Assembly: GCF_054482595.1 (NCBI RefSeq)
Contig: NZ_CM137008.1
DNA: 64,000 bases
Reading direction: 5' to 3' (one strand)
The notes under the pieces are model-generated. The model searched no databases, was not told the origin of the DNA, and saw only the letters and a program-made list of their open reading frames with translations. The translations under genes were made by a program, and so were the position numbers. Within the stretch, counting starts at the first letter, position 1. Every line of letters begins with the position of its first letter. This document shows positions 1 to 54,186 of this stretch, one piece after another.

Positions 1-1
1 A

Positions 2-14366: not shown

Positions 14367-14455
14367 ACTTTGCTCCTTATGAATGAGTTAGCGGTATAAA
14401 TGAAAAGGCCGCGTCTCCCGGAGAAGACGCGGCCTGATGGATGAAATGAAGACGT

Positions 14456-14725: not shown

Positions 14726-14759
14726 GATGACCGGGGCCTGAAGGGGAGTGACCTGATTA

Positions 14760-25335: not shown

Positions 25336-26409
25336 AAAAATCTCCTCCGGATGTTGTTAATCTCAACCGGCGTTGATGATGAAAACAACGCACCACCTTC
25401 ACCGGCATAACAACCGGGGAGAAACGTAAAAAATCAGTAGGGGAATATTCCTGCCAGGAGAGAAACGGTTGTGTACAGGCAATACAGGTTGTCTGTTTTG
25501 TCAGTGAAGCCGGTATAAACGGAAGATGATTTTGTGTTGCCGGAATATGGGATGGTATTTTGTCGTGACGGAATCAGTATTTTCAGTGATGATTATTACT
25601 GCGCAGGGGAGTACCGGAGAGAAACCACGCCCTGTACCTGCCAGAGCGGTGGTTTGTATTGACTGAACGGAAGATAAAGCGAGGTAAACACTGTTGTGGT
25701 GAGCGGAGAAGACTGAGATTATTCTCTGTAATTACAAACAACAGTGATCTTATCCGGTTTTTTTACCGTTACGGGTTTCAGGGGATCAATTTTATAGACC
25801 GGGGTAATGACCACGCCGTAATTTATGGAGAAAAGCGGGATCCAGCAATAAACGTCAGGATATTTCTGTGTCTCCGGAATACCTTTTGTGCCAGAGGCCA
25901 TCAGATCTTTAACGCTCACGAAAAATGACTTCCGCAGATCAAAAAAGTACTCGTTATATATCACATCCTTTGCCAGCAGGATGACTGCATTACCAACAGC
26001 CGATTTTACAGGTGTTTCATCAGGTGGATTATCGTGATTGTATATTGTTCTTTCTATATAAATAAAACAGGCATATTTCGTCTTCTCCCCGGATAGTTGC
26101 ATCTGGTATTCGCAAATGTCTTTGATATACCGACTTTCAACCCTTCCAATCATCTTATCCCGGCGATAGTGTCTTTTATGTTTCAGCGCGTACAGAACAC
26201 CATTTGAACTGTCAAACTCCAGGACACTTCTGGTGAAAAGTTTGTTTTCCCAGATCTCCAGACAATACTTCTCTGCACTGACGACATTGCGTTTGTGGGG
26301 AAGATTCCGTTGATACACTCCATTTAATAAGCGTGACTGCAGTTCGCCTGCAAGTTGATAGTAACAGTTAATGTCATTAAGGACAGGTGCTGTGGCGTTG
26401 GATTTGCCC

Positions 26410-27315
26410 CTATATTTCCAGACACCTGTTATCACTTAACCCATTACTGGCTTGCTGCCGTAGATATTCCCGTGGCGAGCGATAACCCAGTGCACTATGC
26501 GGATGCCATTCGTTATAATGCTCGAATGCCTCTGCAAGGTTCTTTGCTGCCGTTAACCCGTCTGGTTTGGGCATGACACTGATGTAGTCACGCTTTATCG
26601 TTTTCACGAAGCTCTCTGCTATGCCGTTACTCTCCGGACTCCGCACCGCCGTGTTCTTCGGTTCAAGCCCCAACATCCGGGCAAACTGCCGTGTTTCATT
26701 AGCCCGGTAGCATGAACCATTATCCGTCAGCCACTCTACTGGAGACGCCGGAAGCTCGTTGCCGAAACGGCGTTCCACCGCTCCCAGCATGACGTCCTGT
26801 ACTGTTTCACTGTTGAAGCCGCCCGTAGTGACCGCCCAGTGCAGTGCCTCACGGTCACAGCAGTCCAGCGCGAACGTGACTCGCAGTTTTTCTCCGTTAT
26901 CACAGCGGAACTCGAACCCGTCAGAGCACCATCGCTGATTACTTTCTTTCACAGCCACTCTGCCGGTATGTGCCCGTTTCGATGGCGGTACAGCGGGTTT
27001 TCGCTCAAGCAACAGCGCATTCTGGCGCATGATCCGGTAAATACGTTTGGCATTGATCGCAGGCATACCATCAAGTTCGGCCTGTCTGCGAAGCAGCGCC
27101 CATACCCGACGATAACCATATGTGGGCAGCTCTCCGATAACATGGTGTATACGGAGAAGCACATCCGTATCATCTGAGTGACGGCTGCGGCGACCATCTT
27201 TCCAGTCATCGGTTCGTCTGAGAATGACGTGCAACTGCGCACGCGACACCCGGAGACAACGGCTGACTAAGCTTACTCCCCATCCCCGGGCAATAAGGGC
27301 GCGTGCGCTATCCAC
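26410..27315 (-). CDS. insD: IS2 transposase OrfB (InsD), normally expressed by frameshifting from orfA
   Basis: 301 aa with DDE catalytic core, matching IS2 InsD as recalled. Confidence 0.9.
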
Positions 27316-27638
27316 TTTTTTGCACGCCCGTATTCAACGGCTTCTTTAAGGAGTTCATTTTCCATCGTTTTTTTGCCGAGCAGGCGCTGGAGTTCTTTAA
27401 TCTGCTTCATGGCGGCAGCAAGTTCAGAGGCAGGAACGACCTGTTCTCCTGCGGCCACAGCAGTAAGACTTCCCTCCTGGTATTGCTTGCGCCAGAGAAA
27501 TAACTGGCTGGCTGCCACACCGTGTTGCCGGGCAACAAGGGAGACTGTCATTCCCGGTTCAAAACTCTGCTGAACAATAGCGATCTTTTCCTGTGTAGTA
27601 CGCCGTCTGCGTTTCTCCGGTCCTAAGACATCAATCAT
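27273..27638 (-). CDS. insC: IS2 transposase OrfA (InsC)
   Basis: [47 protein letters not shown]... matches IS2 InsC as recalled. Confidence 0.9.
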
Positions 27639-28180
27639 CTGCTCTCCAATGACTAGTCTAAAAACTAGTATTAAGACTATCACTTAAATAAGTGATATTG
27701 GTTGTCTGGAGATTCAGGGGGCCAGTCTAGGCGTTGAGTAATGTGTTGATTACCTTAGAGCGCGAAAGTTTGTGGGTATGACAGTACTCATCCACAATTC
27801 GCAGTGTCTCATCACTGGTCATATTGAAAGTTATACGTGTTGTCATGATGAAGTTTTCTGTTAATCATACTGGTTGATATGCATAACATTTCATAAAAAA
27901 TACTGTTAATTCATATAATTGATTTTTTGACTGGTTTTATCCTCGTGTGGTGGAAAGCAGTATTACTGCCACTGTAGTCAGCATAAATCTATCACACAGA
28001 ACCACCGAAAATGAAGCATTGCTCAGGGGGAAGCTGCCACTCGTATGAGTTCTCTGAACCATGATAACCAGTATTTTTCGTTTTGGGTGATTTGTTTATC
28101 GTTACAGCTACATACAGTTCATGTACCATTAAAAAATAATAAAGGTTAATTAGTATTATTTATAGAAGTATGTTTATGTA

Positions 28181-33799: not shown

Positions 33800-35520
33800 A
33801 TGCATGTGTCAACGACGGATGAAAGTGGCTCTTCCGCAACCTGGGTGGAGATTTTCATGCCAGTGGACTCATTACCCTCTGCCTGAGTAGTTCAAATCCT
33901 GCTCGACCATACATCTGGCGTTTCAGCATCTTCAGGCGATTTACATGACCTTCGACAACACCATTACTCCAGTGACTACTGATTGCCTCACATATAGCTG
34001 CAGCATCAGCTTCCATCCCCGCCGCCACGCGCCGAAATTCTGCTGAACCGCTTTCGTGGACTCGAGTGAACCAACTGCTTAGCTGTGATTTATTTTGGGT
34101 TTTCAGAATACGGTAGAACTCGAGTGCCAGTTGCTGCGCTATTTTCAGCTCAGGTTCTTTTTCACACATCAGACTAATAAATCGGGAAGCATAATTTTCT
34201 TCATCCCTGGTTATTCTCCAGGGCATCAACCAGCGGCTTACCCGGGACACTGAAGGAAGTCTGACGGCAGTAGTAACCGGTGGGTTCCAGCCTTTACGCC
34301 ATTTGGCAACCGCATCCCTGACGATGGTTTCACTGCCTGTAAATCCCCGGGCCACCATTTCCCGCCATATCCGGCTGGCGTTATAATTACCACTTTCTCG
34401 TTGCTCTTTTAACCACTCCCTCCATGGGTCCAGAAGCCCTCGCTTTGGCGGTCGGGTTGACATTTCAGGGAATGTTCCTGAACGCACCCAGCGACTGACT
34501 GTCACACGCGACAGGCCTGTAATACGGGATATTTCCCTGAAACTACATCCCTTGTTATGCAGGGCCATAACCTCTGTCCAACGCTGATGCCGTTTTTTGC
34601 GGGTTTGTTGTTTTAGGCGTTCCGGACGACGGAGCGATGCTGCAGGCACAGATGGTTCTGGATCAGGTGATTTCTTTGGTGACAACTCACTGGCAACAAG
34701 ACGTATCAGAGGTATATGTCTGTACATCATTCGTTCAGGCGCATCGCCAATATTTTTTAGCAGATGCCATCGATCGGCCACCTGTCTGGCCTGAGGTGCA
34801 CCTTCACGTGCTGCTGTCGCATAGACTCCACTGCGATCACGCGAGACAATCTGTATTTCCGGATATTTTCTGAACCAGGTCGCCAGCGTACGCTGATCAC
34901 GGCCGGGAAGCAGGACGAGGGGAGGGTGAGTATCAAGATTGACGATTAACGTACCGTAACGGTGGCCCCGATGCCACGCCCACTCATCAATACCGACATG
35001 AGGCGAGCCTGACTGTTTCGTCTCCGGGGTATTGATAACCCTGCGAAGGAGAGTATCAGCACTGCAACGGAGACCCACTGCCGTTGCTGCCCGTTTCCCG
35101 GCCTCACCTCCGGCGATTAATCCCAGTTGACGTTGTAAATTTTGTAACGCCTGTGAAGACTGTTGGTGTGAACCGGCGAAGGGAGCAAGCGACTCGGCAA
35201 AAATTTTACGTGAACAAGCCGGGTTACGGCAGTACCAGTGGCGGACAGAAAATACAAGCCATAGCGTATGTCCTGAGCAGGGTAGATGCTGTATCCGGCG
35301 CCGACGACAACTATGAACAGAGTCGCTACGCTTAAAGCATTCAGGACATTGTGCTGTTTTGCGTTTTCCGTGGAGATGGAGGGTTATACCGTCAGAGCTA
35401 ATAATTTGTCGACTGCATCGCCATCCGCAAGGTAACTGTAGAAGTGTCTTAAGAGAGTGCATTGCGTTGCCCATGACTTAAAACAGCTTAGATCTTTGTT
35501 CACCAGAAAGTTTCATCCAT
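33800..35520 (-). mobile_element. ISL3-family insertion sequence (approximate ends)
   Basis: Contains a single 539-aa ISL3-type transposase gene; element ends were not mapped. Confidence 0.5.
33855..35474 (-). CDS. ISL3-family transposase
   Basis: N-terminal Cys-rich zinc-finger region, central DDE region and C-terminal SNGVVEGHVNRLKMLKRQMYGRAGFELLRQRVM. Confidence 0.8.
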   Translation of the reverse strand: MGNAMHSLKTLLQLPCGWRCSRQIISSDGITLHLHGKRKTAQCPECFKRSDSVHSCRRRRIQHLPCSGHTLWLVFSVRHWYCRNPACSRKIFAESLAPFAGSHQQSSQALQNLQRQLGLIAGGEAGKRAATAVGLRCSADTLLRRVINTPETKQSGSPHVGIDEWAWHRGHRYGTLIVNLDTHPPLVLLPGRDQRTLATWFRKYPEIQIVSRDRSGVYATAAREGAPQARQVADRWHLLKNIGDAPERMMYRHIPLIRLVASELSPKKSPDPEPSVPAASLRRPERLKQQTRKKRHQRWTEVMALHNKGCSFREISRITGLSRVTVSRWVRSGTFPEMSTRPPKRGLLDPWREWLKEQRESGNYNASRIWREMVARGFTGSETIVRDAVAKWRKGWNPPVTTAVRLPSVSRVSRWLMPWRITRDEENYASRFISLMCEKEPELKIAQQLALEFYRILKTQNKSQLSSWFTRVHESGSAEFRRVAAGMEADAAAICEAISSHWSNGVVEGHVNRLKMLKRQMYGRAGFELLRQRVMSPLA

Positions 35521-35547
35521 TTTCTTCCACCCAAGTTGCGGAAGAAC

Positions 35548-35590
<43 letters not shown>

Positions 35591-35859
35591 TACACCAGCG
35601 AAACCACACAGGTAGCTATTACCATATGTGGTAATACACTAGTTACAGGAAAAACATGCAGGTTCCGCAATACGTTGTGTGTTGCTGCTTAGTCAGGATC
35701 TTTTCTTCCATGCGAGATACGACAACACTTTTGAGGAAAGATGTTCACAACTGGTGGGGCGATTGCAACAGGTTTGTGCAGAACTCCCCCCGGATGGCAA
35801 TGCAGGGGGGAAAGGATTTTTCAGGTTGACCGCCCAGGTACATCAAATCAGTATGCTGC

Positions 35860-36585
35860 TCACGCCTGACGGTGCGATGAGTAATGTATTTCATACTCTT
35901 CCCGGTAGAGAGTTTCCCCCCAAAGAACCGGTTTATTCTCAGCAGTCAAATAAGTATGTTGTCGTACCAGAATTGGGCGGGAACGCTTTATTTTCAGCTT
36001 CTGGGCCGCATCCCGGCTGGGCAGCGCCACATGAACCTGGTTGGCAATTGTCTGTATCTCTATGCGAAGTGCCTGCTCAAAAATGTTTTGCAACGCATGG
36101 ACTTCCAGTTCCTGCTTATCTATTTGCAGGGCAAGAATTGAAGGCATATAACGAATTTCGAATGCAATTGGCTGCTGATTTATCAAGCGCAACCTTAACA
36201 GCCGATGGATGCTCTCTTTGCCTGATAACATCAGTTTTGTCCGTAAGAGTTCTGACGTTGAGACAGGTGCGAATTCGACGAGTTGATATTCGAGGTGTTT
36301 GTCGACACCAACCAGATCTTTTTCAAAAAATCCAAGAGATTGCGTATCCATTACGGTGATAATGGAAGGTTTTTTAACGAAGGTTCCACGTCCCCGAATG
36401 CGTTCAATCAATCCATCCGTAAGAAGACCCTGCATCGCATGGACCACTGTCGCTCGGGTGGTATTAAATTGGGCTGCAAGTTCGTTTTCAGAAGGTAAGC
36501 GTTCGCCTTGTTTATATACATTTTGTGCTATTCCATTGCGTAATGCTTCTCTGATCTGCAGGTAAATTGGCAAATTGCGATGCAT
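35860..36585 (-). CDS. GntR-family transcriptional regulator (HutC/UTRA-type)
   Basis: N-terminal winged HTH (LPSENELAAQFNTTRATVVHAMQGLLTDGLIERIRGRGTFV) and a C-terminal effector domain; divergent from the amidohydrolase gene. Confidence 0.85.
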   Translation of the reverse strand: MHRNLPIYLQIREALRNGIAQNVYKQGERLPSENELAAQFNTTRATVVHAMQGLLTDGLIERIRGRGTFVKKPSIITVMDTQSLGFFEKDLVGVDKHLEYQLVEFAPVSTSELLRTKLMLSGKESIHRLLRLRLINQQPIAFEIRYMPSILALQIDKQELEVHALQNIFEQALRIEIQTIANQVHVALPSRDAAQKLKIKRSRPILVRQHTYLTAENKPVLWGETLYREEYEIHYSSHRQA

Positions 36586-36613
36586 GTCAAATTAATCCTT
36601 CATTCTAAGTTGC

Positions 36614-36625
36614 ATAGTCAACTAT
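36614..36625. promoter_or_regulatory. Palindrome ATAGTCAACTAT in the divergent intergenic region; candidate GntR operator
   Basis: Perfect 5-2-5 inverted repeat containing a GT...AC core, between the regulator and the amidohydrolase gene. Confidence 0.3.
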
Positions 36626-36707
36626 ACAACTTCAAGGGTGACGGTATGTCATTTTAGCAGATATCACCTTCAGGTGTGGTCAGTTAAACATAAATGAGTT
36701 AGAGAAA

Positions 36708-37505
36708 ATGATTTTTGATACGCATGCGCATGTTTTTGTTCGAGGATTACCATTAGCGGAACATTGCCGATATGTTCCTGATTACGACGCCACACCGGAG
36801 AGTTATCTGACTCACTTGGATCGGTTTGGCATTGATGTTGGTATTCTGGTGCAACCCAGTTTTCTGGGGACGGATAACCACTATATGCTTGAGGCTCTTC
36901 GCCGTTACCCTACCCGGTTTCGTGGTGTAGCCGTTGTGGATCCAAACATTACGCGCTGTAAACTGGATGAAATGGCAAAATTAGGGGTCACTGGTATCCG
37001 CTTAAATTTAGTCGGCGTGGAAATTCCCGATCTTACGCAACCTGCATGGCAACACCTGTTAGAACATATTAAAGCCCTGGGATGGCATGTTGAGCTACAC
37101 AGAGCTGCGCGCGACTTGCCAGCGTTAATTACGGTATTACTTAAATCCGGTGTAAAGATTGTCGTTGACCATTTCGCGTTGCCTTCTCAGGAAGAGAAAC
37201 AAAACGATCCCGGATTTCAGTTTCTCCTTGAGCATGCAGAAACGCAGCAAATCTGGTTGAAACTTTCTGGCGCCTATCGCAATGGCAGTACTGAAACTCT
37301 CAACGATAACGTGGCACCGTTAATTCCTCTCCTGCTGCAGCATTTTGGACCTGCACATTTATTGTGGGGTAGCGACTGGCCACATACTCGATACGAAAAT
37401 GTCGTCAATTATCAAAAAACGTTCGAGTTACTGACGCAGCAAATACCTGATAAAGAAATGAGAAATAAAATTTTATCGGTTAGTGCAGAATCACTTATCG
37501 ATTAG
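36708..37505 (+). CDS. Amidohydrolase-2 family metal-dependent hydrolase (lactonase/decarboxylase-like)
   Basis: 265 aa with N-terminal HAH (MIFDTHAHVF) and C-terminal GSDWPH motifs typical of TIM-barrel amidohydrolases. Confidence 0.8.
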   Translation: MIFDTHAHVFVRGLPLAEHCRYVPDYDATPESYLTHLDRFGIDVGILVQPSFLGTDNHYMLEALRRYPTRFRGVAVVDPNITRCKLDEMAKLGVTGIRLNLVGVEIPDLTQPAWQHLLEHIKALGWHVELHRAARDLPALITVLLKSGVKIVVDHFALPSQEEKQNDPGFQFLLEHAETQQIWLKLSGAYRNGSTETLNDNVAPLIPLLLQHFGPAHLLWGSDWPHTRYENVVNYQKTFELLTQQIPDKEMRNKILSVSAESLID

Positions 37506-37536
37506 TTGGATTGAGAATATAGTCGAAAGGTATATC

Positions 37537-38886
37537 ATGAGCATATTTTATAAAAAAAGCTGGTACAAGTGGATTGTATTGGTGGTTTGTATTCTTGCCT
37601 ATTCATCAGGAAACCTGGTGCGCTGGAATTATACGGGAATATCGCAATATCTTATTGGTGAATGGCACATTGGAAAAGAAGAATTGGGGATCCTTGGTTC
37701 CGCATTCTTTTATGCCTACGCGATTGGGCAAAGTCCCTGGGGAACACTTACCGATATATTAGGCGGACGCAGAGTTATTTCTATCGGTATTTTAATTACC
37801 GCTATTATGTTCTCTCTCTTTGCTTTTGCGGGTGGCTACCATGCCGCTATCATCATTCGAGTATTAATGGGATTTGTTGGGGCGGCAACATTTGTGCCTT
37901 GTATGGCGGTACTTTCTCGCTGGTTTAGTAAAAAGGAGCGAGGTATGGTGCTGAATATCTTCTCTGGCACAGGTGGTGGATTAGGTGAGCTGTGGTCCTT
38001 TTTATTAATGCCATTGATTTCATTATTTATGGTAGGCGGCGCTACCGTGCTTGGCCTGAGCTCCTGGCGTGCATCTACGCTAATTATGGCGTTTGTCACA
38101 CTGGCGATCATGATCCTCTGTTTTGTCGGTATGCGCTCCGACCCGTCGGAATTAGGTCTTCCGTCCGTTGTTGAACAGGAGACGCGTAAGCAGGCGAAAG
38201 AACATAGCTATGCCAGGACACTGCTTAATGCGTTGCGCGATCCGTGGTTCTGGGTCATTACATTCGCCTGGCAAGGTTTTACCGTTTCTCTGCGTCTGCT
38301 ACCGGCCTGGTTGCCTATCTATGCGGCAGCTTACTACAAACAGACACAGGGATTATCCAGCGTTGAGGCGATGGTCGCAGGAGGTATGATAGCATCAGTG
38401 TATGTTGCCGGACGTATTTTGGGAACGCCTGTCTTTGGCAAATTATCTGACTTTTTGCTTGTCAGTTATAACGTACCAAGAACATTGATTATTGCTTGCT
38501 TCCATATCTTTATTACCGTCTCAATGTTTGCTCTTAGCCATCAAATGCCTTCCACATTTTTATTTGCAGTTCTGGTTTTTGTGATTGGTGCCGCGATAAA
38601 TATGTTCCCTCTGGTTAATGCAGTCGTCGCAGAAATCTGGCCGGTTAAAACGGGGGGCGCGTTAATGGGGATGGTGAATACGGTTGGGCAGTTAATAGGT
38701 GCCTCAGCGTTGGCCTACAGTGGTTTTATGGCAGAAAAATTTTCCATAGCCGGAGCAGGATACAGTTTTGAGTATCGTGGCATTTGGTATTTGGCAATGA
38801 TATTCAGTTCAATATCTATCCTGGCGTCTCTGTTGGCGATGCATCGCGAAAAACAAAGTATTCGGGAAAATGCCTTGAGTCATTAA
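37537..38886 (+). CDS. MFS transporter
   Basis: About 450 aa with roughly 12 hydrophobic segments; ATG at 37537 preceded by AAAGG. Confidence 0.85.
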   Translation: MSIFYKKSWYKWIVLVVCILAYSSGNLVRWNYTGISQYLIGEWHIGKEELGILGSAFFYAYAIGQSPWGTLTDILGGRRVISIGILITAIMFSLFAFAGGYHAAIIIRVLMGFVGAATFVPCMAVLSRWFSKKERGMVLNIFSGTGGGLGELWSFLLMPLISLFMVGGATVLGLSSWRASTLIMAFVTLAIMILCFVGMRSDPSELGLPSVVEQETRKQAKEHSYARTLLNALRDPWFWVITFAWQGFTVSLRLLPAWLPIYAAAYYKQTQGLSSVEAMVAGGMIASVYVAGRILGTPVFGKLSDFLLVSYNVPRTLIIACFHIFITVSMFALSHQMPSTFLFAVLVFVIGAAINMFPLVNAVVAEIWPVKTGGALMGMVNTVGQLIGASALAYSGFMAEKFSIAGAGYSFEYRGIWYLAMIFSSISILASLLAMHREKQSIRENALSH

Positions 38887-38891
38887 GCATA

Positions 38892-39947
38892 ATGTTTAAT
38901 CATATATTTACCCAGGTCAAACGTTCAGAAAATAAAAAAATGGCGGAAATCGCCCAATTCCTGCATGAAAATGATTTGAGCGTTGACACCACTGTCGAAG
39001 TATTTATTACCGTAACCCGCGATGAAAAGCTTATCGCGTGCGGCGGAATTGCCGGAAATATTATTAAATGCGTTGCTATCAGTGAATCCGTTCGCGGTGA
39101 AGGACTGGCGCTGACATTAGCCACCGAACTGATAAACCTCGCCTATGAGCGGCACAGCACGCATCTGTTTATTTATACCAAAACCGAATACGAGGCGCTG
39201 TTCCGCCAGTGCGGTTTTTCCACGCTGACCAGCGTCCCCGGCGTGATGGTGCTGATGGAAAACAGCGCCACGCGACTGAAACGCTATGCCGAATCGCTGA
39301 AAAAATTTCGTCATCCAGGGAACAAGATTGGCTGCATTGTGATGAACGCCAATCCCTTTACGAATGGTCACCGTTATCTGATTCAACAGGCTGCGGCACA
39401 GTGCGACTGGTTGCATCTGTTTTTAGTCAAAGAAGATTCTTCACGCTTCCCCTATGAAGACCGGCTGGATCTGGTGTTAAAAGGCACCGCCGATATTCCA
39501 CGCCTGACCGTGCATCGCGGCTCCGAATACATCATCTCCCGCGCTACGTTCCCTTGCTACTTCATTAAAGAACAGAGCGTCATTAACCATTGTTACACCG
39601 AAATTGATCTGAAGATTTTCCGTCAGTACCTCGCTCCCGCGCTGGGTGTAACTCACCGCTTTGTCGGTACTGAACCCTTTTGTCGCGTTACCGCCCAGTA
39701 CAACCAGGATATGCGCTACTGGCTGGAAACGCCGACTATCTCCGCACCGCCCATCGAACTGGTTGAAATTGAGCGGCTGTGTTACCAGGAGATGCCGATA
39801 TCCGCTTCCCGGGTACGCCAACTGCTGGCGAAAAACGATCTCACGGCTATCGCGCCGCTGGTCCCTGCAGTCACGCTGCATTATTTGCAGAACCTGCTTG
39901 AGCACTCCCGCCAGGACGCGGCAGCTCGTCAAAAGACCCCCGCATGA
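38892..39947 (+). CDS. citC: Citrate lyase ligase CitC
   Basis: Sequence (…VKRSENKKMAEIAQFLHENDLSVDTTVEVFITVTRDEKLIACGG...) matches E. coli CitC as recalled; start codon choice is uncertain. Confidence 0.88.
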   Translation: MFNHIFTQVKRSENKKMAEIAQFLHENDLSVDTTVEVFITVTRDEKLIACGGIAGNIIKCVAISESVRGEGLALTLATELINLAYERHSTHLFIYTKTEYEALFRQCGFSTLTSVPGVMVLMENSATRLKRYAESLKKFRHPGNKIGCIVMNANPFTNGHRYLIQQAAAQCDWLHLFLVKEDSSRFPYEDRLDLVLKGTADIPRLTVHRGSEYIISRATFPCYFIKEQSVINHCYTEIDLKIFRQYLAPALGVTHRFVGTEPFCRVTAQYNQDMRYWLETPTISAPPIELVEIERLCYQEMPISASRVRQLLAKNDLTAIAPLVPAVTLHYLQNLLEHSRQDAAARQKTPA

Positions 39948-39961
39948 GAAACAGGTGAAAA

Positions 39962-40258
39962 ATGAAAATAAACCAGCCCGCCGTTGCAGGCACCCTTGAG
40001 TCTGGGGATGTGATGATACGCATCGCCCCACTCGATACGCAGGATATCGACCTGCAAATCAACAGCAGCGTTGAGAAACAGTTTGGCGATGCCATTCGCA
40101 CCACCATTCTGGACGTTCTCGCCCGCTACAACGTGCGCGGCGTACAGCTGAATGTCGATGACAAAGGCGCACTGGACTGCATTTTACGTGCACGACTGGA
40201 AGCCCTGCTGGCACGCGCCAGCGGTATCCCGGCTCTGCCATGGGAGGATTGCCAATGA
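39962..40258 (+). CDS. citD: Citrate lyase acyl carrier protein CitD
   Basis: 98 aa ([42 protein letters not shown]...). Confidence 0.9.
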
Positions 40259-41163
40259 TTTCCGCTTCGCTGCAACAACGTAAAACTCGCACCCGCCGCA
40301 GTATGTTGTTTGTACCTGGTGCTAATGCCGCGATGGTCAGCAACTCCTTCATCTACCCGGCTGATGCCCTGATGTTTGACCTCGAAGACTCCGTTGCATT
40401 GCGTGAAAAAGACACCGCCCGCCGCATGGTTTACCACGCGCTGCAACATCCGCTTTATCGCGATATTGAAACCATTGTGCGTGTAAACGCGCTGGATTCC
40501 GAATGGGGTGTTAACGACCTGGAAGCCGTCGTTCGCGGTGGTGCGGACGTTGTGCGTCTGCCGAAAACCGATACCGCTCAGGATGTTCTGGATATCGAAA
40601 AAGAGATCCTGCGTATCGAAAAAGCCTGTGGTCGTGAACCCGGCAGTACCGGCCTGCTGGCGGCGATTGAATCTCCGCTGGGCATTACCCGCGCGGTAGA
40701 AATCGCTCACGCTTCCGAGCGTTTGATCGGTATCGCCCTCGGTGCAGAAGACTATGTGCGCAACCTGCGTACAGAACGCTCCCCGGAAGGAACTGAACTG
40801 CTGTTCGCTCGCTGCTCCATTTTGCAGGCCGCGCGTTCTGCGGGTATTCAGGCGTTCGATACCGTCTATTCCGACGCTAACAACGAAGCCGGATTCCTGC
40901 AAGAAGCCGCCCACATCAAACAGCTGGGCTTTGACGGCAAATCGCTGATCAACCCGCGTCAGATTGATCTGCTGCACAACCTCTACGCACCGACCCAGAA
41001 AGAAGTGGATCACGCCCGCCGCGTCGTAGAAGCCGCTGAAGCCGCCGCTCGCGAAGGCCTCGGCGTGGTTTCCCTGAACGGCAAGATGGTGGACGGTCCG
41101 GTTATCGATCGCGCCCGTCTGGTGCTCTCCCGCGCAGAACTTTCCGGCATCCGCGAAGAATAA
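40255..41163 (+). CDS. citE: Citrate lyase beta subunit CitE
   Basis: Start [34 protein letters not shown]...; overlaps citD stop (ATGA). Confidence 0.9.
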
Positions 41164-41173
41164 GGCAATCAAA

Positions 41174-42706
41174 ATGACGCAGAAAATTGAACAATCTCAA
41201 CGACAAGAACGGGTAGCGGCCTGGAATCGTCGCGCTGAATGCGATCTTGCCGCTTTCCAGAACTCGCCAAAGCAAACCTACCAGGCTGAAAAAGCGCGCG
41301 ATCGCAAACTGTGCGCCAACCTGGAAGAAGCGATTCGTCGCTCTGGTTTACAGGACGGCATGACGGCTTCCTTCCATCACGCTTTCCGTGGCGGTGACCT
41401 GATCGTCAATATGGTGATGGACGTCATCGCGAAGATGGGCTTTAAAAACCTGACTCTGGCCTCCAGCTCCCTGAGTGATTGCCATGCGCCGCTGGTAGAA
41501 CACATTCGCCAGGGCGTGGTTACCCGCATTTATACCTCTGGCCTGCGCGGTCCACTGGCGGAAGAAATCTCCCGTGGTCTGCTGGCGGAACCGGTGCAAA
41601 TCCACTCTCACGGCGGACGTGTGCATCTGGTACAGAGCGGCGAACTGAATATCGATGTGGCTTTCCTCGGCGTCCCGTCCTGTGATGAATTCGGTAATGC
41701 CAACGGCTACTCCGGTAAAGCCTGCTGCGGCTCCCTCGGCTATGCAATGGTTGATGCCGACAACGCAAAACAGGTCGTGATGCTTACCGAAGAACTGCTG
41801 CCTTATCCGCATAATCCGGCAAGCATTGAGCAAGATCAGGTTGATCTGATCGTCAAAGTTGATCGCGTTGGCGATGCTGCAAAAATCGGCGCTGGTGCTA
41901 CCCGTATGACCACTAACCCGCGCGAACTGCTTATTGCCCGTAGCGCTGCGGATGTGATTGTTAACTCTGGCTACTTCAAAGAAGGTTTCTCTATGCAGAC
42001 CGGCACCGGCGGCGCTTCGCTGGCGGTAACCCGTTTCCTGGAAGACAAAATGCGTAGCCGCGATATTCGCGCCGACTTCGCCCTCGGCGGTATTACCGCA
42101 ACGATGGTTGATCTGCACGAAAAAGGTCTGATCCGCAAACTGCTGGATGTGCAGAGCTTTGACAGCCATGCTGCGCAATCGCTGGCCCGTAACCCCAATC
42201 ACATCGAAATCAGCGCCAACCAGTACGCTAACTGGGGGTCGAAAGGCGCATCGGTTGATCGTCTCGACGTGGTGGTACTGAGTGCGCTGGAAATTGACAC
42301 CCAGTTCAACGTTAACGTGCTGACCGGCTCTGACGGCGTACTGCGTGGTGCTTCCGGTGGTCACTGCGATACCGCAATTGCCTCTGCGCTTTCCATCATC
42401 GTCGCGCCGCTGGTACGCGGTCGTATTCCGACGCTGGTGGATAACGTGCTGACCTGCATCACCCCGGGCTCCAGTGTCGATATTCTGGTCACAGACCACG
42501 GCATCGCTGTTAACCCGGCACGTCCGGAGCTGGCAGAACGTCTGCAGGAAGCGGGGATCAAAGTGGTTTCTATTGAGTGGCTGCGTGAACGTGCGCGTCT
42601 GCTGACCGGTGAACCACAGCCGATTGAATTCACCGACCGCGTCGTTGCCGTTGTGCGTTACCGCGATGGCTCGGTGATCGATGTTGTGCATCAGGTGAAG
42701 GAATAA
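41174..42706 (+). CDS. citF: Citrate lyase alpha subunit CitF
   Basis: 510-aa ORF in operon position after citE. Confidence 0.9.
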   Translation: MTQKIEQSQRQERVAAWNRRAECDLAAFQNSPKQTYQAEKARDRKLCANLEEAIRRSGLQDGMTASFHHAFRGGDLIVNMVMDVIAKMGFKNLTLASSSLSDCHAPLVEHIRQGVVTRIYTSGLRGPLAEEISRGLLAEPVQIHSHGGRVHLVQSGELNIDVAFLGVPSCDEFGNANGYSGKACCGSLGYAMVDADNAKQVVMLTEELLPYPHNPASIEQDQVDLIVKVDRVGDAAKIGAGATRMTTNPRELLIARSAADVIVNSGYFKEGFSMQTGTGGASLAVTRFLEDKMRSRDIRADFALGGITATMVDLHEKGLIRKLLDVQSFDSHAAQSLARNPNHIEISANQYANWGSKGASVDRLDVVVLSALEIDTQFNVNVLTGSDGVLRGASGGHCDTAIASALSIIVAPLVRGRIPTLVDNVLTCITPGSSVDILVTDHGIAVNPARPELAERLQEAGIKVVSIEWLRERARLLTGEPQPIEFTDRVVAVVRYRDGSVIDVVHQVKE

Positions 42707-42709
42707 GTC

Positions 42710-44123
<1,414 letters not shown>

Positions 44124-44148
44124 ATCATTAATATATCCGGAGTTAACT

Positions 44149-46746
44149 ATGTTAAAAGAATACCGTAAGCATGTAGCTGAGCGTGCCGCTGAGGGGATTG
44201 CGCCCAAACCCCTGGATGCAAACCAAATGGCCGCGCTTGTAGAGCTGCTGAAAAACCCGCCCGCGGGCGAAGAAGAATTCCTGTTAGATCTGTTAACCAA
44301 CCGTGTTCCCCCTGGCGTTGATGAAGCCGCCTATGTCAAAGCAGGCTTCCTGGCTGCTGTCGCCAAAGGTGAAGCCAAATCCCCACTGCTGACACCGGAA
44401 AAGGCCATCGAACTGCTGGGCACCATGCAGGGTGGTTACAACATTCATCCGCTGATCGACGCGCTGGATGATGCCAAACTGGCACCGATCGCTGCCAAAG
44501 CACTTTCTCACACGCTGCTGATGTTCGATAACTTCTATGACGTAGAAGAGAAAGCCAAAGCAGGCAACGAATATGCGAAGCAGGTAATGCAGTCCTGGGC
44601 GGATGCCGAATGGTTCCTGAATCGCCCGGCGCTGGCTGAAAAACTGACCGTTACCGTCTTCAAAGTCACTGGCGAAACCAACACCGATGACCTCTCTCCG
44701 GCACCGGATGCGTGGTCACGCCCGGATATCCCACTGCACGCGCTGGCGATGCTGAAAAACGCCCGTGAAGGCATCGAGCCAGATCAGCCTGGTGTTGTTG
44801 GCCCGATCAAACAGATTGAAGCTCTGCAACAGAAAGGTTTCCCGCTGGCGTACGTCGGTGACGTTGTGGGTACGGGGTCATCGCGTAAATCCGCCACGAA
44901 CTCCGTTCTGTGGTTTATGGGCGATGATATTCCACATGTGCCGAACAAACGCGGCGGTGGTTTGTGCCTCGGCGGTAAAATTGCACCCATCTTCTTTAAC
45001 ACGATGGAAGATGCGGGTGCACTGCCAATCGAAGTCGACGTCTCTAACCTGAACATGGGCGACGTAATTGACGTTTACCCGTACAAAGGTGAAGTGCGTA
45101 ACCACGAAACCGGCGAACTGCTGGCAACCTTCGAACTGAAAACCGACGTGCTGATTGATGAAGTGCGTGCTGGCGGCCGTATTCCGCTGATTATCGGGCG
45201 TGGCCTGACCACCAAAGCGCGTGAAGCACTTGGCCTGCCGCACAGTGATGTGTTCCGTCAGGCGAAAGATGTCGCTGAGAGCGATCGCGGCTTCTCGCTG
45301 GCGCAGAAAATGGTAGGTCGTGCCTGCGGTGTGAAAGGCATTCGTCCGGGCGCGTACTGCGAACCGAAAATGACTTCTGTAGGTTCACAGGACACCACCG
45401 GCCCGATGACCCGTGATGAACTGAAAGACCTGGCGTGCCTGGGCTTCTCGGCTGACCTGGTGATGCAGTCTTTCTGCCACACCGCGGCGTATCCGAAACC
45501 AGTTGACGTGAATACGCACCACACGCTGCCGGACTTCATTATGAACCGTGGCGGTGTGTCGCTGCGTCCGGGTGACGGCGTAATCCACTCCTGGCTGAAC
45601 CGTATGCTGCTGCCGGATACCGTCGGTACCGGTGGTGATTCCCATACCCGTTTCCCGATCGGCATTTCTTTCCCGGCAGGCTCCGGTCTGGTGGCATTTG
45701 CTGCTGCAACTGGCGTCATGCCGCTGGATATGCCGGAATCCGTTCTGGTGCGCTTCAAAGGCAAAATGCAGCCGGGCATCACCCTGCGCGATTTGGTACA
45801 CGCTATTCCGCTGTATGCGATCAAACAAGGTCTGCTGACCGTTGAGAAGAAAGGCAAGAAAAACATCTTCTCTGGCCGCATCCTGGAAATTGAAGGTCTG
45901 CCGGATCTGAAAGTTGAGCAGGCCTTTGAGCTGACCGATGCGTCCGCCGAGCGTTCTGCTGCCGGTTGTACCATCAAGCTGAACAAAGAACCGATCATCG
46001 AATACCTGAACTCCAACATCGTCCTGCTGAAGTGGATGATCGCGGAAGGTTACGGCGATCATCGTACCCTGGAACGCCGTATTCAGGGCATGGAAAAATG
46101 GCTGGCGAATCCTGAGCTGCTGGAAGCCGATGCAGATGCGGAATACGCGGCAGTGATCGACATCGATCTGGCGGATATCAAAGAGCCAATCCTCTGTGCT
46201 CCGAACGACCCGGATGACGCGCGTCCGCTGTCTGCGGTACAGGGCGAGAAGATCGACGAAGTGTTTATCGGTTCCTGCATGACCAACATCGGTCACTTCC
46301 GTGCTGCGGGTAAACTGCTGGATGCGCATAAAGGCCAGCTGCCGACCCGCCTGTGGGTGGCACCGCCAACCCGTATGGACGCCGCGCAGTTGACCGAAGA
46401 AGGCTACTACAGCGTCTTCGGTAAGAGTGGTGCGCGTATCGAGATCCCTGGCTGTTCCCTGTGTATGGGTAACCAGGCGCGTGTAGCAGACGGTGCGACG
46501 GTGGTTTCCACCTCTACCCGTAACTTTCCGAACCGTTTGGGTACTGGCGCGAATGTCTTCCTGGCTTCTGCGGAACTGGCCGCTGTTGCGGCGCTGATTG
46601 GCAAACTGCCGACGCCGGAAGAGTACCAGACCTACGTGGCGCAGGTAGATAAAACCGCCGTTGATACTTACCGTTATCTGAACTTCAACCAGCTTTCTCA
46701 GTATACCGAGAAAGCGGATAGGGTGATTTTTCCTAGTGTGGTTTAA
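44149..46746 (+). CDS. acnB: Aconitate hydratase B / 2-methylisocitrate dehydratase AcnB
   Basis: 865 aa; N-terminus [47 protein letters not shown]... matches AcnB throughout; RBS CCGGAG upstream. Confidence 0.93.
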
Positions 46747-46815
46747 GAAGTCAGTGTGCTGCGTATAAAAAGCTAATACCAGGCTGCCTGTCATATCGAT
46801 TTCATGCAGGATAAG

Positions 46816-46846
46816 TAGAACTCCGTCTAATCTAGACGGAGTTCTA
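46816..46846. repeat. Palindrome TAGAACTCCGTCTA-ATC-TAGACGGAGTTCTA downstream of acnB; related copy at 58007-58040
   Basis: Perfect 14-bp inverted repeat with 3-nt spacer; a near-copy abuts the start of IS66 orf1 at 58007-58040. Confidence 0.45.
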
Positions 46847-46989
46847 TTGTATTGATGGCTTTGGTAGAAGCGTAAGTGTACAGCGAGAGCTGTATTGACA
46901 GGAATGCGTTATTCAGTTGGCAGTGTATTGCGCAGGGGGAGCCGTTCGCTGACGTAAGCGGCTCGTCAGAACCGTATTGATATTTACTG

Positions 46990-47531
46990 AGCGGTCAGTT
47001 CAACTTTCCAGGGCAACAGATCACGTACCCGGTTTGCCGGCCAGTCCTGGATATGTTCAATGACGTAACGCAGCCATTTTCTGGCTCCTCATTGTTCAGA
47101 CGGCATGTGCCGATCAGCGAGTACAACACCGCCGCATGTTCGCCACCGTTGTCGGAACCCACGAAGAGCCAGTTTTTCCGGCCTACGGCCACTCCCCGTA
47201 AGGCGTTCTCTGCGATGTTGTTGTCGATTTCCACCCAGCCATTGCTGCAGTACACATTCAGGCCATCCCACTGTTTCAGCAGGTATGCGAACGCTTTTGC
47301 CGTATCCGAGTGACGCGACAGTGTTTTCATCTGAGTCTGTATCCAGTCATACAGTGACTGCATCAGTGGCGCAGCTCTGGCTTTTCTTGCTGCCAGACGC
47401 TGTTCTGCTGAACATCCCCGGACTTCTGCCTCGGTGGCATACAGTTCACCGATACGCTGCAGGGCTTCCGTGGTGATGTCGGTTGGCACTCTTACATGCA
47501 CATCGTGGATTCTTCTCCGGGAATGAGCCAT
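46990..47531 (-). pseudogene. IS66-family transposase TnpC, C-terminal fragment with frameshift near the 3-prime end
   Basis: [50 protein letters not shown]... matches the TnpC C-terminal half; the true C-terminus is in another frame. Confidence 0.7.
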
Positions 47532-52986: not shown

Positions 52987-52997
52987 CAGGAGGAGTG

Positions 52998-54173: not shown

Positions 54174-54186
54174 GGATCTTACCCCG

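What the first reader, a model, noticed from the sequence alone, without database searches (positions are those of the whole stretch)
35860..38886. Accessory GntR / amidohydrolase / MFS module with a palindromic candidate operator
A divergent regulator with a two-gene hydrolase-transporter operon looks like a catabolic module for a lactone or sugar-acid-like substrate, and I do not recall it from K-12. The intergenic palindrome ATAGTCAACTAT (36614-36625) fits GntR-type GT...AC operators.
Basis: partly seen in the sequence, partly recalled or inferred. Interest (0 to 1): 0.35.

Follow-up and report, generated by a model that had tools for sequence, protein, structure and literature searches.

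The report
Lactonase-fronted citrate-lyase/aconitase operon
The regulator, hydrolase and transporter genes are real, but they are the front end of a rare, mobile ten-gene unit in E. coli that also carries extra copies of citrate lyase and aconitase B, and it most likely imports and ferments a plant-acid lactone such as isocitrate lactone by a route nobody has described.

Summary
The three genes are at the stated coordinates: a HutC-type GntR regulator (35860-36585, minus strand), a LigI-like Amidohydro_2 enzyme (36708-37505) and an organic-anion MFS transporter (37537-38886).

The "two-gene operon" is an under-call. citC starts 5 bp after the MFS stop, and citCDEFXG plus acnB follow with gaps of 31 bp or less, up to a hairpin at 46818-46844. 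That makes nine co-directional genes, with the divergent regulator as a tenth.

All 31 of 5,426 complete E. coli genomes that carry the module carry the whole 11.1-kb block. It is flanked by different IS remnants in different strains.

The cit and acnB copies are 98-100% identical in protein to the native genes but have lost their native promoter regions. The carrier genomes keep their native copies.

It is the centre of a 26-bp palindrome (36607-36632) that contains the 14-mer GTTGNATAGTCAAC. That 14-mer is exact in every orthologous regulator/hydrolase intergenic region examined and was found nowhere else.

Across about 90 loci the hydrolase always sits beside a carboxylate transporter. It has become linked to aconitase genes in several independent arrangements.

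Best reading: uptake of a tricarboxylate lactone, most likely isocitrate lactone, then lactonase, AcnB and citrate lyase. No paper describing this was found.

The parts
35628..46844 (.). Whole conserved cargo block: the divergent regulator plus the nine-gene operon and its terminator-like hairpin.
   Evidence: The stretch 35628-46770 is present in full in 30 complete E. coli genomes at 98.2-100% identity, plus one more where the record start splits it. Different IS remnants flank it in strain 10. The left limit is where homology to the second variant group begins.
35860..36585 (-). HutC-subfamily GntR regulator (241 aa), transcribed divergently from the operon.
   Evidence: Pfam GntR HTH 1.6e-18 and UTRA 8.3e-23. 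Closest solved structures are NagR/YvoA at 1.4e-24 and DasR. It falls below the curated cut-off of every named NCBIfam equivalog.
36607..36632 (.). 26-bp palindrome AAGTTGCATAGT-CA-ACTATACAACTT, the candidate operator.
   Evidence: the repeat finder reports 12-nt arms, 92% complementary, with a 2-nt spacer. About 0.7 such palindromes are expected per 64 kb.
36609..36622 (+). Conserved 14-mer box GTTGCATAGTCAAC (consensus GTTGNATAGTCAAC).
   Evidence: An exact match lies in the regulator/hydrolase intergenic region of all enterobacterial loci (E. coli twice, Enterobacter, K. oxytoca, K. spallanzanii, C. amalonaticus, E. fergusonii twice, L094, L095). There is no exact match anywhere else in the loci scanned. 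It is the only invariant block in the intergenic alignment and sits 23-24 nt from the regulator's start codon.
36617..36630 (-). Overlapping inverted second copy of the box, GTTGTATAGTTGAC (2 mismatches).
   Evidence: The same overlapping inverted arrangement is seen in K. oxytoca and K. spallanzanii.
36708..37505 (+). LigI-like (cog3618, PF04909) lactonase-type amidohydrolase, 265 aa.
   Evidence: Pfam 8.7e-44. PDB sequence matches: 2FFI 1e-67, 4I6K 7e-59, LigI 4.5e-24. AlphaFold2 pLDDT 93.6. Foldseek TM-score 0.95 to 4I6K and 0.79 to LigI. H6, H8, H155, D223 and R98 align with LigI H31, H33, H180, D248 and R124.
37537..38886 (+). MFS organic-anion transporter, 449 aa.
   Evidence: MFS_1 5.2e-49. 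Weak, below-cut-off similarity to the OPA and ACS anion families (PgtP, DgoT, SLC37, SLC17). In orthologous operons it is replaced by CitMHS or TctC transporters.
38892..39947 (+). citC, citrate lyase ligase. It starts 5 bp after the MFS stop.
   Evidence: 98.9% amino-acid identity to K-12 CitC. DNA homology to K-12 begins 9 nt inside the gene, so the native CitAB-controlled promoter region is absent.
39962..40258 (+). citD, citrate lyase acyl carrier protein.
   Evidence: 100% amino-acid identity to K-12.
40255..41163 (+). citE, citrate lyase beta subunit.
   Evidence: 100% amino-acid identity to K-12.
41174..42706 (+). citF, citrate lyase alpha subunit.
   Evidence: 99.2% amino-acid identity to K-12.
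42710..43261 (+). citX, holo-ACP synthase.
   Evidence: 98.4% amino-acid identity to K-12.
43236..44123 (+). citG, triphosphoribosyl-dephospho-CoA synthase.
   Evidence: 98.3% amino-acid identity to K-12. No citT follows it.
44149..46746 (+). Second copy of acnB (aconitase B), 25 bp after citG.
   Evidence: 99.1% amino-acid and 96.6% nucleotide identity to K-12 acnB. Homology starts at the start codon, so the native promoter is absent. Carrier genomes also keep their native acnB and native cit locus, giving 3 matching places per record.
46818..46844 (+). Perfect 12-bp-stem hairpin about 70 nt after the acnB stop, a candidate end of the operon.
   Evidence: It is followed by a weak T-rich tail and was not called by the terminator scan, so this is tentative.

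Best explanation
This is a mobile unit of about 11 kb made of a HutC-type GntR repressor and a divergent nine-gene operon: lactonase-like amidohydrolase, MFS anion transporter, citCDEFXG and acnB.

Proposed mechanism:
1. The repressor binds the conserved GTTGNATAGTCAAC boxes (the 26-bp palindrome at 36607-36632) between the two divergent transcription units. This shuts off both the operon and its own gene.
2. The imported compound, or its hydrolysis product, bound to the UTRA domain, releases the repressor.
3. The transporter imports a carboxylated gamma-lactone derived from a tricarboxylic acid, most probably isocitrate lactone (5-oxotetrahydrofuran-2,3-dicarboxylate), which occurs in plant foods and in the gut.
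4. The LigI-like enzyme opens the ring to give isocitrate.
5. The operon's own AcnB converts isocitrate through cis-aconitate to citrate.
6. The operon's own citrate lyase, activated by CitC, CitX and CitG, cleaves citrate to oxaloacetate and acetate.

Because the cit and acnB copies have lost their native promoters, this route no longer depends on CitA/CitB sensing of external citrate or on normal acnB regulation.

Shown here: the gene content, the tight operon layout, conservation of the block, conservation of the operator box, retention of the catalytic residues, and the recurrent association of the hydrolase with transporters and aconitases.

Inferred: co-transcription, repression, the identity of the substrate, and the direction of flux.
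For: Layout:
- There are nine co-directional intact genes with gaps of 5-31 bp or small overlaps.
- Homology to native K-12 cit starts 9 nt inside citC, and homology to native acnB starts at its start codon. Neither copy therefore brings its native promoter.

The block behaves as a unit:
- All 31 E. coli genomes with the three-gene module also have citC-acnB attached.
- The block has different IS flanks in different strains.

Cross-genus synteny of regulator | hydrolase - transporter with cit and/or aconitase genes:
- Enterobacter: citCDEFXG.
- K. oxytoca and K. spallanzanii: acnB on one side, citCDEFG-oadGAB on the other.
- C. amalonaticus: citCDEFXG-acnB-oadGAB.
- Two other Enterobacterales: the module is inserted directly next to the native acnB-yacL pair, upstream in one and downstream in the other.
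- Veillonella magna and V. caviae: LysR | CitMHS - hydrolase with a 760-aa aconitase.
- An unrelated metagenomic contig: ICL/PrpB-like lyase, MFS, AcnD-like aconitase, PrpF, hydrolase.

Wider family:
- In about 80 other species the hydrolase sits beside a carboxylate transporter. That transporter is an MHS-type MFS in 64 loci, CitMHS in 8 and TctC in 10, with a GntR or LysR regulator and no other enzyme.
- This is expected if the product is already a central metabolite.

Pathway constraint:
- The island's citrate lyase and AcnB are 98-100% identical to the housekeeping enzymes, so they should have housekeeping specificity.
- The intermediate is therefore citrate, and the only hydroxy-acid that needs AcnB to reach citrate is isocitrate.

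Enzyme:
- It has the LigI-type fold and catalytic set.
- The family-invariant residues include R21, R70, R98, R132, K185 and R191, which fits a polycarboxylate ligand.

Operator.

Substrate availability: isocitric lactone is reported in human, wine and Aloe metabolomics papers (list).
Against: - No experiment exists. No transcript, binding or enzyme data are available for this operon or this subfamily.
- The substrate is inferred only from gene context. Hydroxycitrate lactones, homocitrate or allo-isocitrate lactones, or another carboxylated lactone would fit the lactonase equally well.
- K. oxytoca and E. fergusonii place the module near extra aconitase, PrpF and Iso_dh genes. This hints at a chemistry broader than plain isocitrate.
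- The consensus scan found no convincing sigma-70 promoter in the 122-bp intergenic region.
- The cit and acnB genes differ from the first three genes in G+C content (51-58% against 45%). The fusion is therefore a chimera, and its parts could in principle be expressed or used independently.
- cog3618 also contains a lactone isomerase, represented by PDB entry 4MUP for Atu3138. Its function is from memory. Ring opening is therefore not the only possible chemistry.
- E. coli lacks oxaloacetate decarboxylase, so fermentation would need a co-substrate, as for citrate. This point rests on established knowledge and was not tested here.
Confidence: 0.55

Rival explanations
1. The architecture and logic are the same, but the substrate is a different tricarboxylate-type lactone. 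Candidates are hydroxycitrate lactones (hibiscus acid, garcinia acid), allo-isocitrate lactone, homocitrate lactone or 2-methylisocitrate lactone. The product would then enter through AcnB and citrate lyase, or be detoxified.
For: - The lactonase fold and the context do not discriminate among 5-oxotetrahydrofuran-dicarboxylates.
- Klebsiella and E. fergusonii put the module beside a second lactonase (PF10282), CitMHS, two more aconitase-family proteins, PrpF and an Iso_dh-family enzyme.
- L096 pairs the hydrolase with AcnD-like, PrpF and ICL/PrpB-like enzymes, which suggests unusual stereoisomers or substituted citrates.
- Hibiscus acid is reported to be antimicrobial against E. coli and Salmonella (titles: PMC6963829, PMC8839027). 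A bacterial hydroxycitrate-to-2-oxoglutarate enzyme is known only biochemically (PMC4945632).
Against: - The E. coli block contains no enzyme beyond housekeeping-type AcnB and citrate lyase (98-100% identical to the native proteins). These are not known to process hydroxycitrate or homocitrate.
- The minimal regulator-transporter-hydrolase modules in about 80 aerobes imply that the product needs no dedicated downstream enzyme.
Confidence: 0.22
2. A self-contained regulator plus hydrolase-transporter module for a sugar-acid lactone such as an aldonolactone or aldarolactone. The downstream citCDEFXG-acnB genes would be an unrelated neighbouring operon.
For: - The three genes form a compositionally distinct unit (45% G+C against 51-58%).
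- The same triad exists without cit genes in many bacteria.
- Characterised cog3618 members include L-fucono-1,5-lactonase (weak NCBIfam hit at 2.5e-05).
Against: - There are only 5 bp between the MFS stop and citC, and there is no native cit or acnB promoter DNA.
- All 31 E. coli carriers have the full block.
- The link to cit and aconitase genes recurs in at least six independent arrangements across Enterobacterales, Veillonella and a metagenomic contig.
- The partner transporters are citrate-type (CitMHS, TctC), not sugar-acid permeases.
- No dehydratase, aldolase or kinase for sugar acids is present.
Confidence: 0.08
3. The hydrolase is a true 2-pyrone-4,6-dicarboxylate (PDC) lactonase, as the names of its closest PDB relatives suggest, and the module belongs to an aromatic or gallate degradation route.
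For: The closest solved structures, 2FFI and 4I6K, are titled 'putative/probable 2-pyrone-4,6-dicarboxylic acid hydrolase'. LigI itself is a clear homologue at 4.5e-24.
Against: - Those two names are structural-genomics guesses.
- Identity to real LigI is only 25-27%.
- The LigI positions R130 and Y156, recalled from memory as substrate-binding, are V104 and H131 here.
- No ligJ, ligK or ring-cleavage genes are in the block or in any of the ~90 loci examined.
- The product, oxalomesaconate, is not a substrate of citrate lyase or aconitase.
Confidence: 0.05
4. An evolutionary accident. The block is a recombination scar in a mosaic island that happens to juxtapose a foreign three-gene module with duplicated native genes, and it has no integrated function.
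For: - The block lies in an IS-rich island, with ISEc38 immediately upstream and IS66 remnants downstream.
- G+C content changes at the MFS/citC junction.
- Truncated citF-acnB remnants exist in three other genomes (H57-H59).
Against: - All ten genes are intact in 31 genomes spanning two sequence variants and different flanks.
- The same gene order (hydrolase, transporter, citCDEFXG, acnB) exists in Citrobacter with its own diverged alleles, 58-88% identical. The architecture is therefore selected and not a one-off scar.
Confidence: 0.05

Closest known systems
E. coli citCDEFXGT citrate-fermentation operon under CitA/CitB (DpiBA)
   Same: The six citrate-lyase genes are in the same order and are 98-100% identical in protein (97.9% in DNA) to K-12. 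The end reaction is presumably the same: citrate to oxaloacetate plus acetate.
   Different: - It has no citT antiporter, no citAB and no native cit promoter region.
- A lactonase-like enzyme and an MFS transporter precede it, and acnB follows it.
- It is controlled, by inference, by a divergent HutC-type GntR regulator.
- It lies on a mobile island in 0.6% of genomes, in addition to the native locus.
LigI, 2-pyrone-4,6-dicarboxylate lactonase (PDB 4D8L), and cog3618 lactonases in general
   Same: It shares the (beta/alpha)8 amidohydrolase fold (TM-score about 0.8). The His-x-His, His and Asp catalytic residues and the Arg equivalent to R124 are conserved. The substrate class is carboxylated lactones.
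   Different: - Identity is only 25-27%.
- LigI R130 and Y156 are replaced.
- Several family-specific invariant Arg and Lys residues are present.
- The genomic context is tricarboxylate metabolism, not lignin or protocatechuate degradation.
Structural-genomics proteins 2FFI (Pseudomonas putida) and 4I6K (Acinetobacter baumannii ABAYE1769)
   Same: They belong to the same subfamily (E-values 1e-67 and 7e-59; TM-scores 0.92 and 0.95).
   Different: Their function is unassigned, and 'probable PDC hydrolase' is a guess. From memory, unverified because the title is cut off, the 4I6K entry is described as having citric acid bound. If so, that fits a tricarboxylate-shaped site.
4-sulfomuconolactone hydrolase (NCBIfam NF042924)
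   Same: It is the best named family hit (8.1e-40). It is also a hydrolase of a carboxylated lactone.
   Different: The score is 136.8 bits against a cut-off of 500, so this protein is not a member.
HutC-subfamily GntR repressors (NagR/YvoA, DasR, HutC, PhnF)
   Same: It has the GntR winged helix plus the UTRA effector domain. It is encoded divergently from its target. Its candidate operator is palindromic with a central TA, and GTATAGTC in orthologues matches 7 of 8 positions of the GT-N-TA-N-AC type consensus (consensus recalled from the literature).
   Different: It falls below the cut-off of every named equivalog. The effector is unknown. The box GTTGNATAGTCAAC is specific to this regulator group.
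Klebsiella citS-oadGAB-citAB / citCDEFG citrate fermentation locus
   Same: The Klebsiella and Citrobacter versions of this module also carry oadGAB after the cit genes.
   Different: The E. coli block has no oxaloacetate decarboxylase and no CitS. Entry is through a lactonase and a different transporter.

Membership tests
GntR family, HutC subfamily | N-terminal GntR-type winged helix-turn-helix domain | tested here: met
   PF00392 at 1.6e-18, residues 8-70.
GntR family, HutC subfamily | C-terminal UTRA effector-binding domain | tested here: met
   PF07702 at 8.3e-23, residues 96-230. NagR and DasR are the best PDB matches.
GntR family, HutC subfamily | Palindromic operator of the GT-N-TA-N-AC type near the regulated promoter | tested here: inconclusive
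   A conserved 14-mer centred on TA is present. The core is GCATAGTC in E. coli (6 of 8) and GTATAGTC in orthologues (7 of 8). The consensus is from memory of the literature, and binding was not tested.
Named HutC-type equivalogs (HutC, PhnF, TreR, LSA1692 and others) | Score above the NCBIfam curated cut-off | tested here: not met
   The best score is 106 bits against a cut-off of 275.
Amidohydrolase superfamily, Amidohydro_2 / cog3618 lactonase branch | PF04909 match above the gathering score, and a (beta/alpha)8 barrel fold | tested here: met
   150.8 bits against a cut-off of 26.4. The AlphaFold2 model has pLDDT 93.6 and TM-scores of 0.79-0.95 to cog3618 structures.
Amidohydrolase superfamily, Amidohydro_2 / cog3618 lactonase branch | Catalytic residues equivalent to LigI H31, H33, H180 and D248 | tested here: met
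   H6, H8, H155 and D223 align with them and are invariant in 20 family members.
LigI (PDC lactonase) orthologue | LigI substrate-binding residues (R130, Y156) and a lig pathway context | tested here: not met
   These positions are V104 and H131. Identity is 25-27%. No ligJ or ligK is in any locus. The roles of these residues are from memory of the LigI literature.
4-sulfomuconolactone hydrolase | NF042924 equivalog cut-off | tested here: not met
   136.8 bits against a cut-off of 500.
Citrate lyase gene set (citCDEFXG) | All six genes present, intact and orthologous to characterised E. coli genes | tested here: met
   No internal stops. 98.3-100% amino-acid identity to K-12.
Canonical E. coli citrate fermentation operon | CitT antiporter and a CitA/CitB-controlled promoter | tested here: not met
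   acnB follows citG in place of citT. Homology to K-12 starts inside citC. No citAB is adjacent.
Major facilitator superfamily | MFS_1 domain over the full length | tested here: met
   PF07690 at 5.2e-49, residues 24-389. No specific subfamily cut-off is reached.
Isocitrate-lactone hydrolase (proposed activity) | Hydrolysis of isocitrate lactone to isocitrate | not testable with these tools
   This is a context inference only. No described enzyme or family with this activity was found in the searched literature.

The most novel reading that the evidence does not exclude
The 265-aa protein founds a large functional subfamily of LigI-like lactonases that has not been recognised. 5,979 homologues score E<=1e-20, and two solved structures have no assigned function. 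On this reading the subfamily opens isocitrate-type (tricarboxylate) lactones. This would be a new entry point into the citric-acid cycle for plant-derived acids. E. coli and its relatives would then have built a dedicated fermentation operon around it. They did so by recruiting promoter-less copies of their own citrate lyase and aconitase B genes under a new HutC-type repressor with its own conserved operator.
Probability: 0.4. Interest if true: 0.62.

Novelty: new variant of a known kind. Interest (0 to 1): 0.5.

Why it matters
If this is right, it assigns a concrete and easily testable activity and pathway to a widespread orphan enzyme family, including two structures that have sat unannotated in the PDB. 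It also adds a new nutrient route for gut and plant-associated bacteria: tricarboxylate lactones from fruit, Aloe, wine or Hibiscus. It is a clean example of operon assembly by capture of housekeeping paralogues (cit, acnB) that are rewired to a new regulator. Finally, it yields a defined regulator-operator pair (GTTGNATAGTCAAC) that could be used as a biosensor part. For E. coli population biology it marks a rare niche-specific trait, present in 0.6% of complete genomes from human, poultry, mink, dog, gull, seawater and wastewater isolates.

Tried and rejected
- Literature. Eight full-text searches covered isocitrate lactone and spelling variants, cog3618, hydroxycitrate with citrate lyase, aconitase and lactone, the PDB codes 4I6K, 2FFI and ABAYE1769, and hibiscus or garcinia acid with lactonase. 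None found a paper on this operon or on an isocitrate- or hydroxycitrate-lactone hydrolase gene. The LigI paper could not be fetched by DOI.\n- Plasmids. There was no match to the three-gene module in PLSDB even in distant mode.\n- RNA elements. An Rfam scan of 35400-47400 gave only a chance-level hit (E 0.22) inside acnB.\n- Promoters and terminators. The consensus scan found no convincing sigma-70 promoter in the 122-bp intergenic region and fewer promoter-like sites than in shuffles, so promoter positions remain unmapped.\n- tRNA. No tRNA gene lies near the island edge at 9000-11000, so I dropped an initial assumption that this is a pheU island.\n- Window source. Mapping the whole window onto strain Santai failed upstream of 27730. 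The window comes from another carrier strain, and upstream annotation borrowed from Santai was discarded.\n- ORFs. Several long ORFs antisense to the GntR and cit genes, and in G+C-rich relatives (clusters 4, 6, 7 and 11), are spurious.\n- One look-up (P0034) had no contig on record.\n- PDC hydrolase and 4-sulfomuconolactone hydrolase were rejected as identities (see the membership tests).

Full report
**1. Checking the observation**

The ORF list and the sequence show the following genes:
- A 241-aa ORF at 35860-36585 on the minus strand.
- A 265-aa ORF at 36708-37505 on the plus strand.
- An ORF ending at 38886. RefSeq starts it at the ATG at 37537 (449 aa), which has an AAGG Shine-Dalgarno sequence. 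An in-frame GTG lies at 37483.

Pfam assigns GntR+UTRA, Amidohydro_2 and MFS_1 respectively.

The string ATAGTCAACTAT is at 36614-36625. It is only a 5+2+5 inverted repeat, a pattern that occurs 77 times in the window. The repeat finder shows that it is the centre of a 26-bp palindrome at 36607-36632 with 12-nt arms, 11 of 12 complementary. Palindromes of that size are expected about 0.7 times per 64 kb.

The module is accessory. Only 31 of 5,426 complete E. coli genomes have it, and K-12 is not among them.

**2. The operon is larger than the finding**

The RefSeq annotation of an identical stretch (strain Santai) and my own translations show the following layout:
- citC starts 5 bp after the MFS stop (38892).
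- It is followed by citD, citE, citF, citX, citG and then acnB (44149-46746).
- All are intact and on the same strand, with gaps of 31 bp or less or small overlaps.
- A perfect 12-bp-stem hairpin lies at 46818-46844.

All 31 carriers have the entire 11.1-kb block 35628-46770. Thirty hold it in one piece and one has it split by the record origin. In strain 10 the same block sits between different IS remnants, so it travels as a unit.

No plasmid copy was found.

**3. Origin of the downstream genes**

The cit genes are 97.9% identical in DNA and 98-100% in protein to K-12 citCDEFXG. The acnB copy is 96.6% identical in DNA and 99.1% in protein to K-12 acnB. Some native E. coli cit alleles are 99.0% identical to the island copy (H60-H65).

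Homology begins 9 nt inside citC and exactly at the acnB start codon, so neither copy brings its native promoter or CitB sites. Carriers keep their native cit locus and native acnB, giving three matching places per record.

The first three genes are 45% G+C, and the cit and acnB genes are 51-58%. The operon is therefore a chimera of a foreign three-gene module and E. coli-type paralogues.

The same gene order exists in Citrobacter amalonaticus with its own diverged alleles (CitE 77%, AcnB 88%). The architecture is therefore older than the E. coli alleles. Either gene conversion by native copies or re-assembly could explain this, and I could not decide between them.

**4. The hydrolase**

- The closest solved structures are two structural-genomics proteins without an assigned function: 2FFI (1e-67) and 4I6K (7e-59). 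LigI follows at 4.5e-24.
- An AlphaFold2 model (pLDDT 93.6) superposes on 4I6K with TM-score 0.95, on 2FFI with 0.92, on LigI with about 0.8, and on Atu3138 (4MUP) with 0.84.
- In the HMMER alignment, H6, H8, H155, D223 and R98 match LigI H31, H33, H180, D248 and R124. LigI R130 and Y156 are V104 and H131.
- In a 20-member alignment these catalytic residues are invariant, as are R21, R70, R132, K185, Y190 and R191.
- NCBIfam's best hit, 4-sulfomuconolactone hydrolase, scores 137 bits against a cut-off of 500.

I conclude that this is an active cog3618 enzyme acting on a carboxylated lactone. It is not LigI and not the sulfomuconolactone hydrolase.

**5. Gene context across bacteria**

Homologues number 5,979 at E<=1e-20. 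The contexts are as follows.

| Organism or locus | Arrangement |
|---|---|
| Enterobacter | GntR \| hydrolase-MFS-citCDEFXG |
| K. oxytoca, K. spallanzanii | acnB, then GntR \| hydrolase-CitMHS-citCDEFG-oadGAB, with AcnA-like, PrpF, a second aconitase and Iso_dh upstream |
| C. amalonaticus | GntR \| hydrolase-CitMHS-citCDEFXG-acnB-oadGAB |
| E. fergusonii | GntR \| hydrolase-CitMHS, a few kb from a beta-propeller lactonase-CitMHS-aconitase-PrpF-aconitase set |
| Two further Enterobacterales contigs (L094, L095) | Module inserted immediately upstream, or immediately downstream, of the native acnB-yacL pair |
| Veillonella magna, V. caviae | LysR \| CitMHS-hydrolase next to a 760-aa aconitase |
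| Metagenomic contig L096 | GntR(FCD), ICL/PrpB-like lyase, MFS, AcnD-like aconitase, PrpF, hydrolase |

In 80 GTDB species (Burkholderiales, Pseudomonas, Bradyrhizobium, Methylobacterium and others) the hydrolase is flanked by a transporter. That transporter is an MHS-type MFS in 64 loci, TctC in 10 and CitMHS in 8. A GntR or LysR regulator accompanies it, with no further enzymes.

Two regularities follow:
- The invariant partner is a carboxylate transporter, with different transporter families taking the same place in different lineages.
- Wherever extra enzymes are attached, they are aconitase-family enzymes plus a C-C lyase (citrate lyase or an ICL-family enzyme).

**6. Inference of function**

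The E. coli block's AcnB and citrate lyase are essentially the housekeeping proteins, so the pathway must run through citrate. AcnB is needed only if the entry compound is isocitrate or cis-aconitate. A lactonase produces a hydroxy-acid, and the gamma-lactone of isocitrate is the obvious precursor.

Aerobes with a complete TCA cycle need only the transporter and the hydrolase. Fermenters add aconitase and a lyase, and oxaloacetate decarboxylase in Klebsiella and Citrobacter.

The promoter-less paralogues make sense because native cit expression requires CitA/CitB sensing of external citrate. This is established knowledge and was not tested here.

Isocitric lactone is a metabolite reported in human plasma and urine, wine and Aloe studies (list). 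No gene for its hydrolysis was found in the searchable literature. Hydroxycitrate lactones are the main alternative substrate. A hydroxycitrate-to-2-oxoglutarate enzyme is known only biochemically (PMC4945632), and the extra Klebsiella and E. fergusonii genes may serve such compounds.

**7. Regulator and operator**

The regulator belongs to the HutC subfamily (GntR HTH plus UTRA). Its closest structures are NagR/YvoA and DasR. It falls below the cut-off of every named equivalog.

The orthologous intergenic regions were compared. The only invariant block is GTTG-ATAGTCAA, at a fixed 23-24 nt from the regulator's start codon.

The exact 14-mer GTTGNATAGTCAAC occurs in the intergenic region of every enterobacterial locus. 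At zero mismatches it occurs nowhere else in the loci scanned (L094 and L095 were added). Allowing two mismatches, there are 6 hits in 1.6 Mb of other loci.

The boxes come in 1-4 copies, direct or inverted. In E. coli two overlapping inverted copies (36609-22 on the plus strand, 36617-30 on the minus strand) create the 26-bp palindrome.

This phylogenetic footprint, across regulators only 52-85% identical, is strong evidence for an operator. Repression and autoregulation are inferred from its position and from how the family generally behaves.

Promoters were not located, and no Rfam element is present.

**8. Comparison with known systems, and novelty**

The block works like a citrate-fermentation operon with a new front end and a new regulator. 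It is not a member of the canonical CitAB/CitT system. The hydrolase is a cog3618 member but not LigI. I rate it a new variant of a known kind.

Confidence by step:
- About 0.85 for the nine-gene operon and the operator.
- About 0.7 for "the product feeds aconitase and citrate lyase".
- About 0.4-0.45 for isocitrate lactone specifically.

**9. Caveats**

- Everything functional is inference from sequence and context.
- The statement that 4I6K contains bound citrate is from memory, because the title is truncated.
- The LigI residue roles, the Atu3138 isomerase function and the HutC operator consensus are also from memory of the literature.
- The window is not colinear with strain Santai upstream of 27730. 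Only annotation at or after that coordinate was transferred, and it was verified by translation.

Noticed in passing
window 33855-35474 (-): An intact ISL3-family transposase (ISEc38-like, 539 aa) lies about 385 bp from the regulator's stop codon. The second E. coli variant of the block lacks it and has other transposase fragments there.
   Followed up: partly
window 58349-61996: A second accessory regulator/transporter/hydrolase module sits on the same island, between IS66 remnants. It consists of LysR (61079-61996, +) divergent from dcuC (59672-60943, -) and a 436-aa 'amidohydrolase' (58349-59659, -). All three are intact. A 2-mismatch copy of the GntR box at 61793-61806 lies inside the LysR gene and is probably chance.
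   Followed up: no
window 51415-56076: A malX-like PTS gene, a MalY/PatB-like gene and a 629-aa gene annotated 'enterotoxin' form a co-directional trio downstream of the block. agaR (49890-50714) and broken uxaA-like and aldolase genes lie before it.
   Followed up: no
L006/L007 1-8966 (K. oxytoca); L009 14448-20795 (E. fergusonii): A neighbouring second tricarboxylate-type module is present. In E. fergusonii it contains a beta-propeller lactonase (PF10282), CitMHS, an AcnA-like aconitase, PrpF and a 754-aa aconitase. In K. oxytoca the aconitase, PrpF, aconitase, Iso_dh and AcnB genes are seen. It may be a route for hydroxycitrate or unusual isocitrate stereoisomers.
   Followed up: no
L094 9079-15265; L095 3-5682: In two other Enterobacterales the GntR | hydrolase-MFS module is inserted directly beside the native acnB-yacL pair, once upstream and once downstream of acnB. 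The same operator box is present in both.
   Followed up: yes
L096 2563-10807: A different architecture links the same hydrolase family to an FCD-type GntR regulator, an ICL/PrpB-like lyase, an MFS transporter, a 906-aa aconitase and PrpF.
   Followed up: partly
E. coli records NZ_CP106756.1, NZ_CM128600.1, NZ_CM128599.1 (H57-H59): Truncated remnants keep only citF/citX/citG-acnB, including the island-specific citG-acnB junction, at 99.7-99.8% identity. The block therefore decays in some lineages.
   Followed up: no
window 26400-27730 and 1-8877: Relative to strain Santai, the window has an extra segment of about 1.3 kb and a different left end. The window therefore comes from another carrier strain, and the island is mosaic.
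   Followed up: partly
window 14407-14739 and 17638-17665: Further long near-perfect palindromes (12-nt arms) lie in the region that aligns to the Santai Ag43-type autotransporter gene. Their function was not examined.
   Followed up: no
window 36681-36696: TGTGGTCAGTTAAACA, just upstream of the hydrolase start codon, is conserved between E. coli and Enterobacter. It loosely resembles a CRP half-site pair, and its position so close to the ATG makes a classical activator site doubtful.
   Followed up: no
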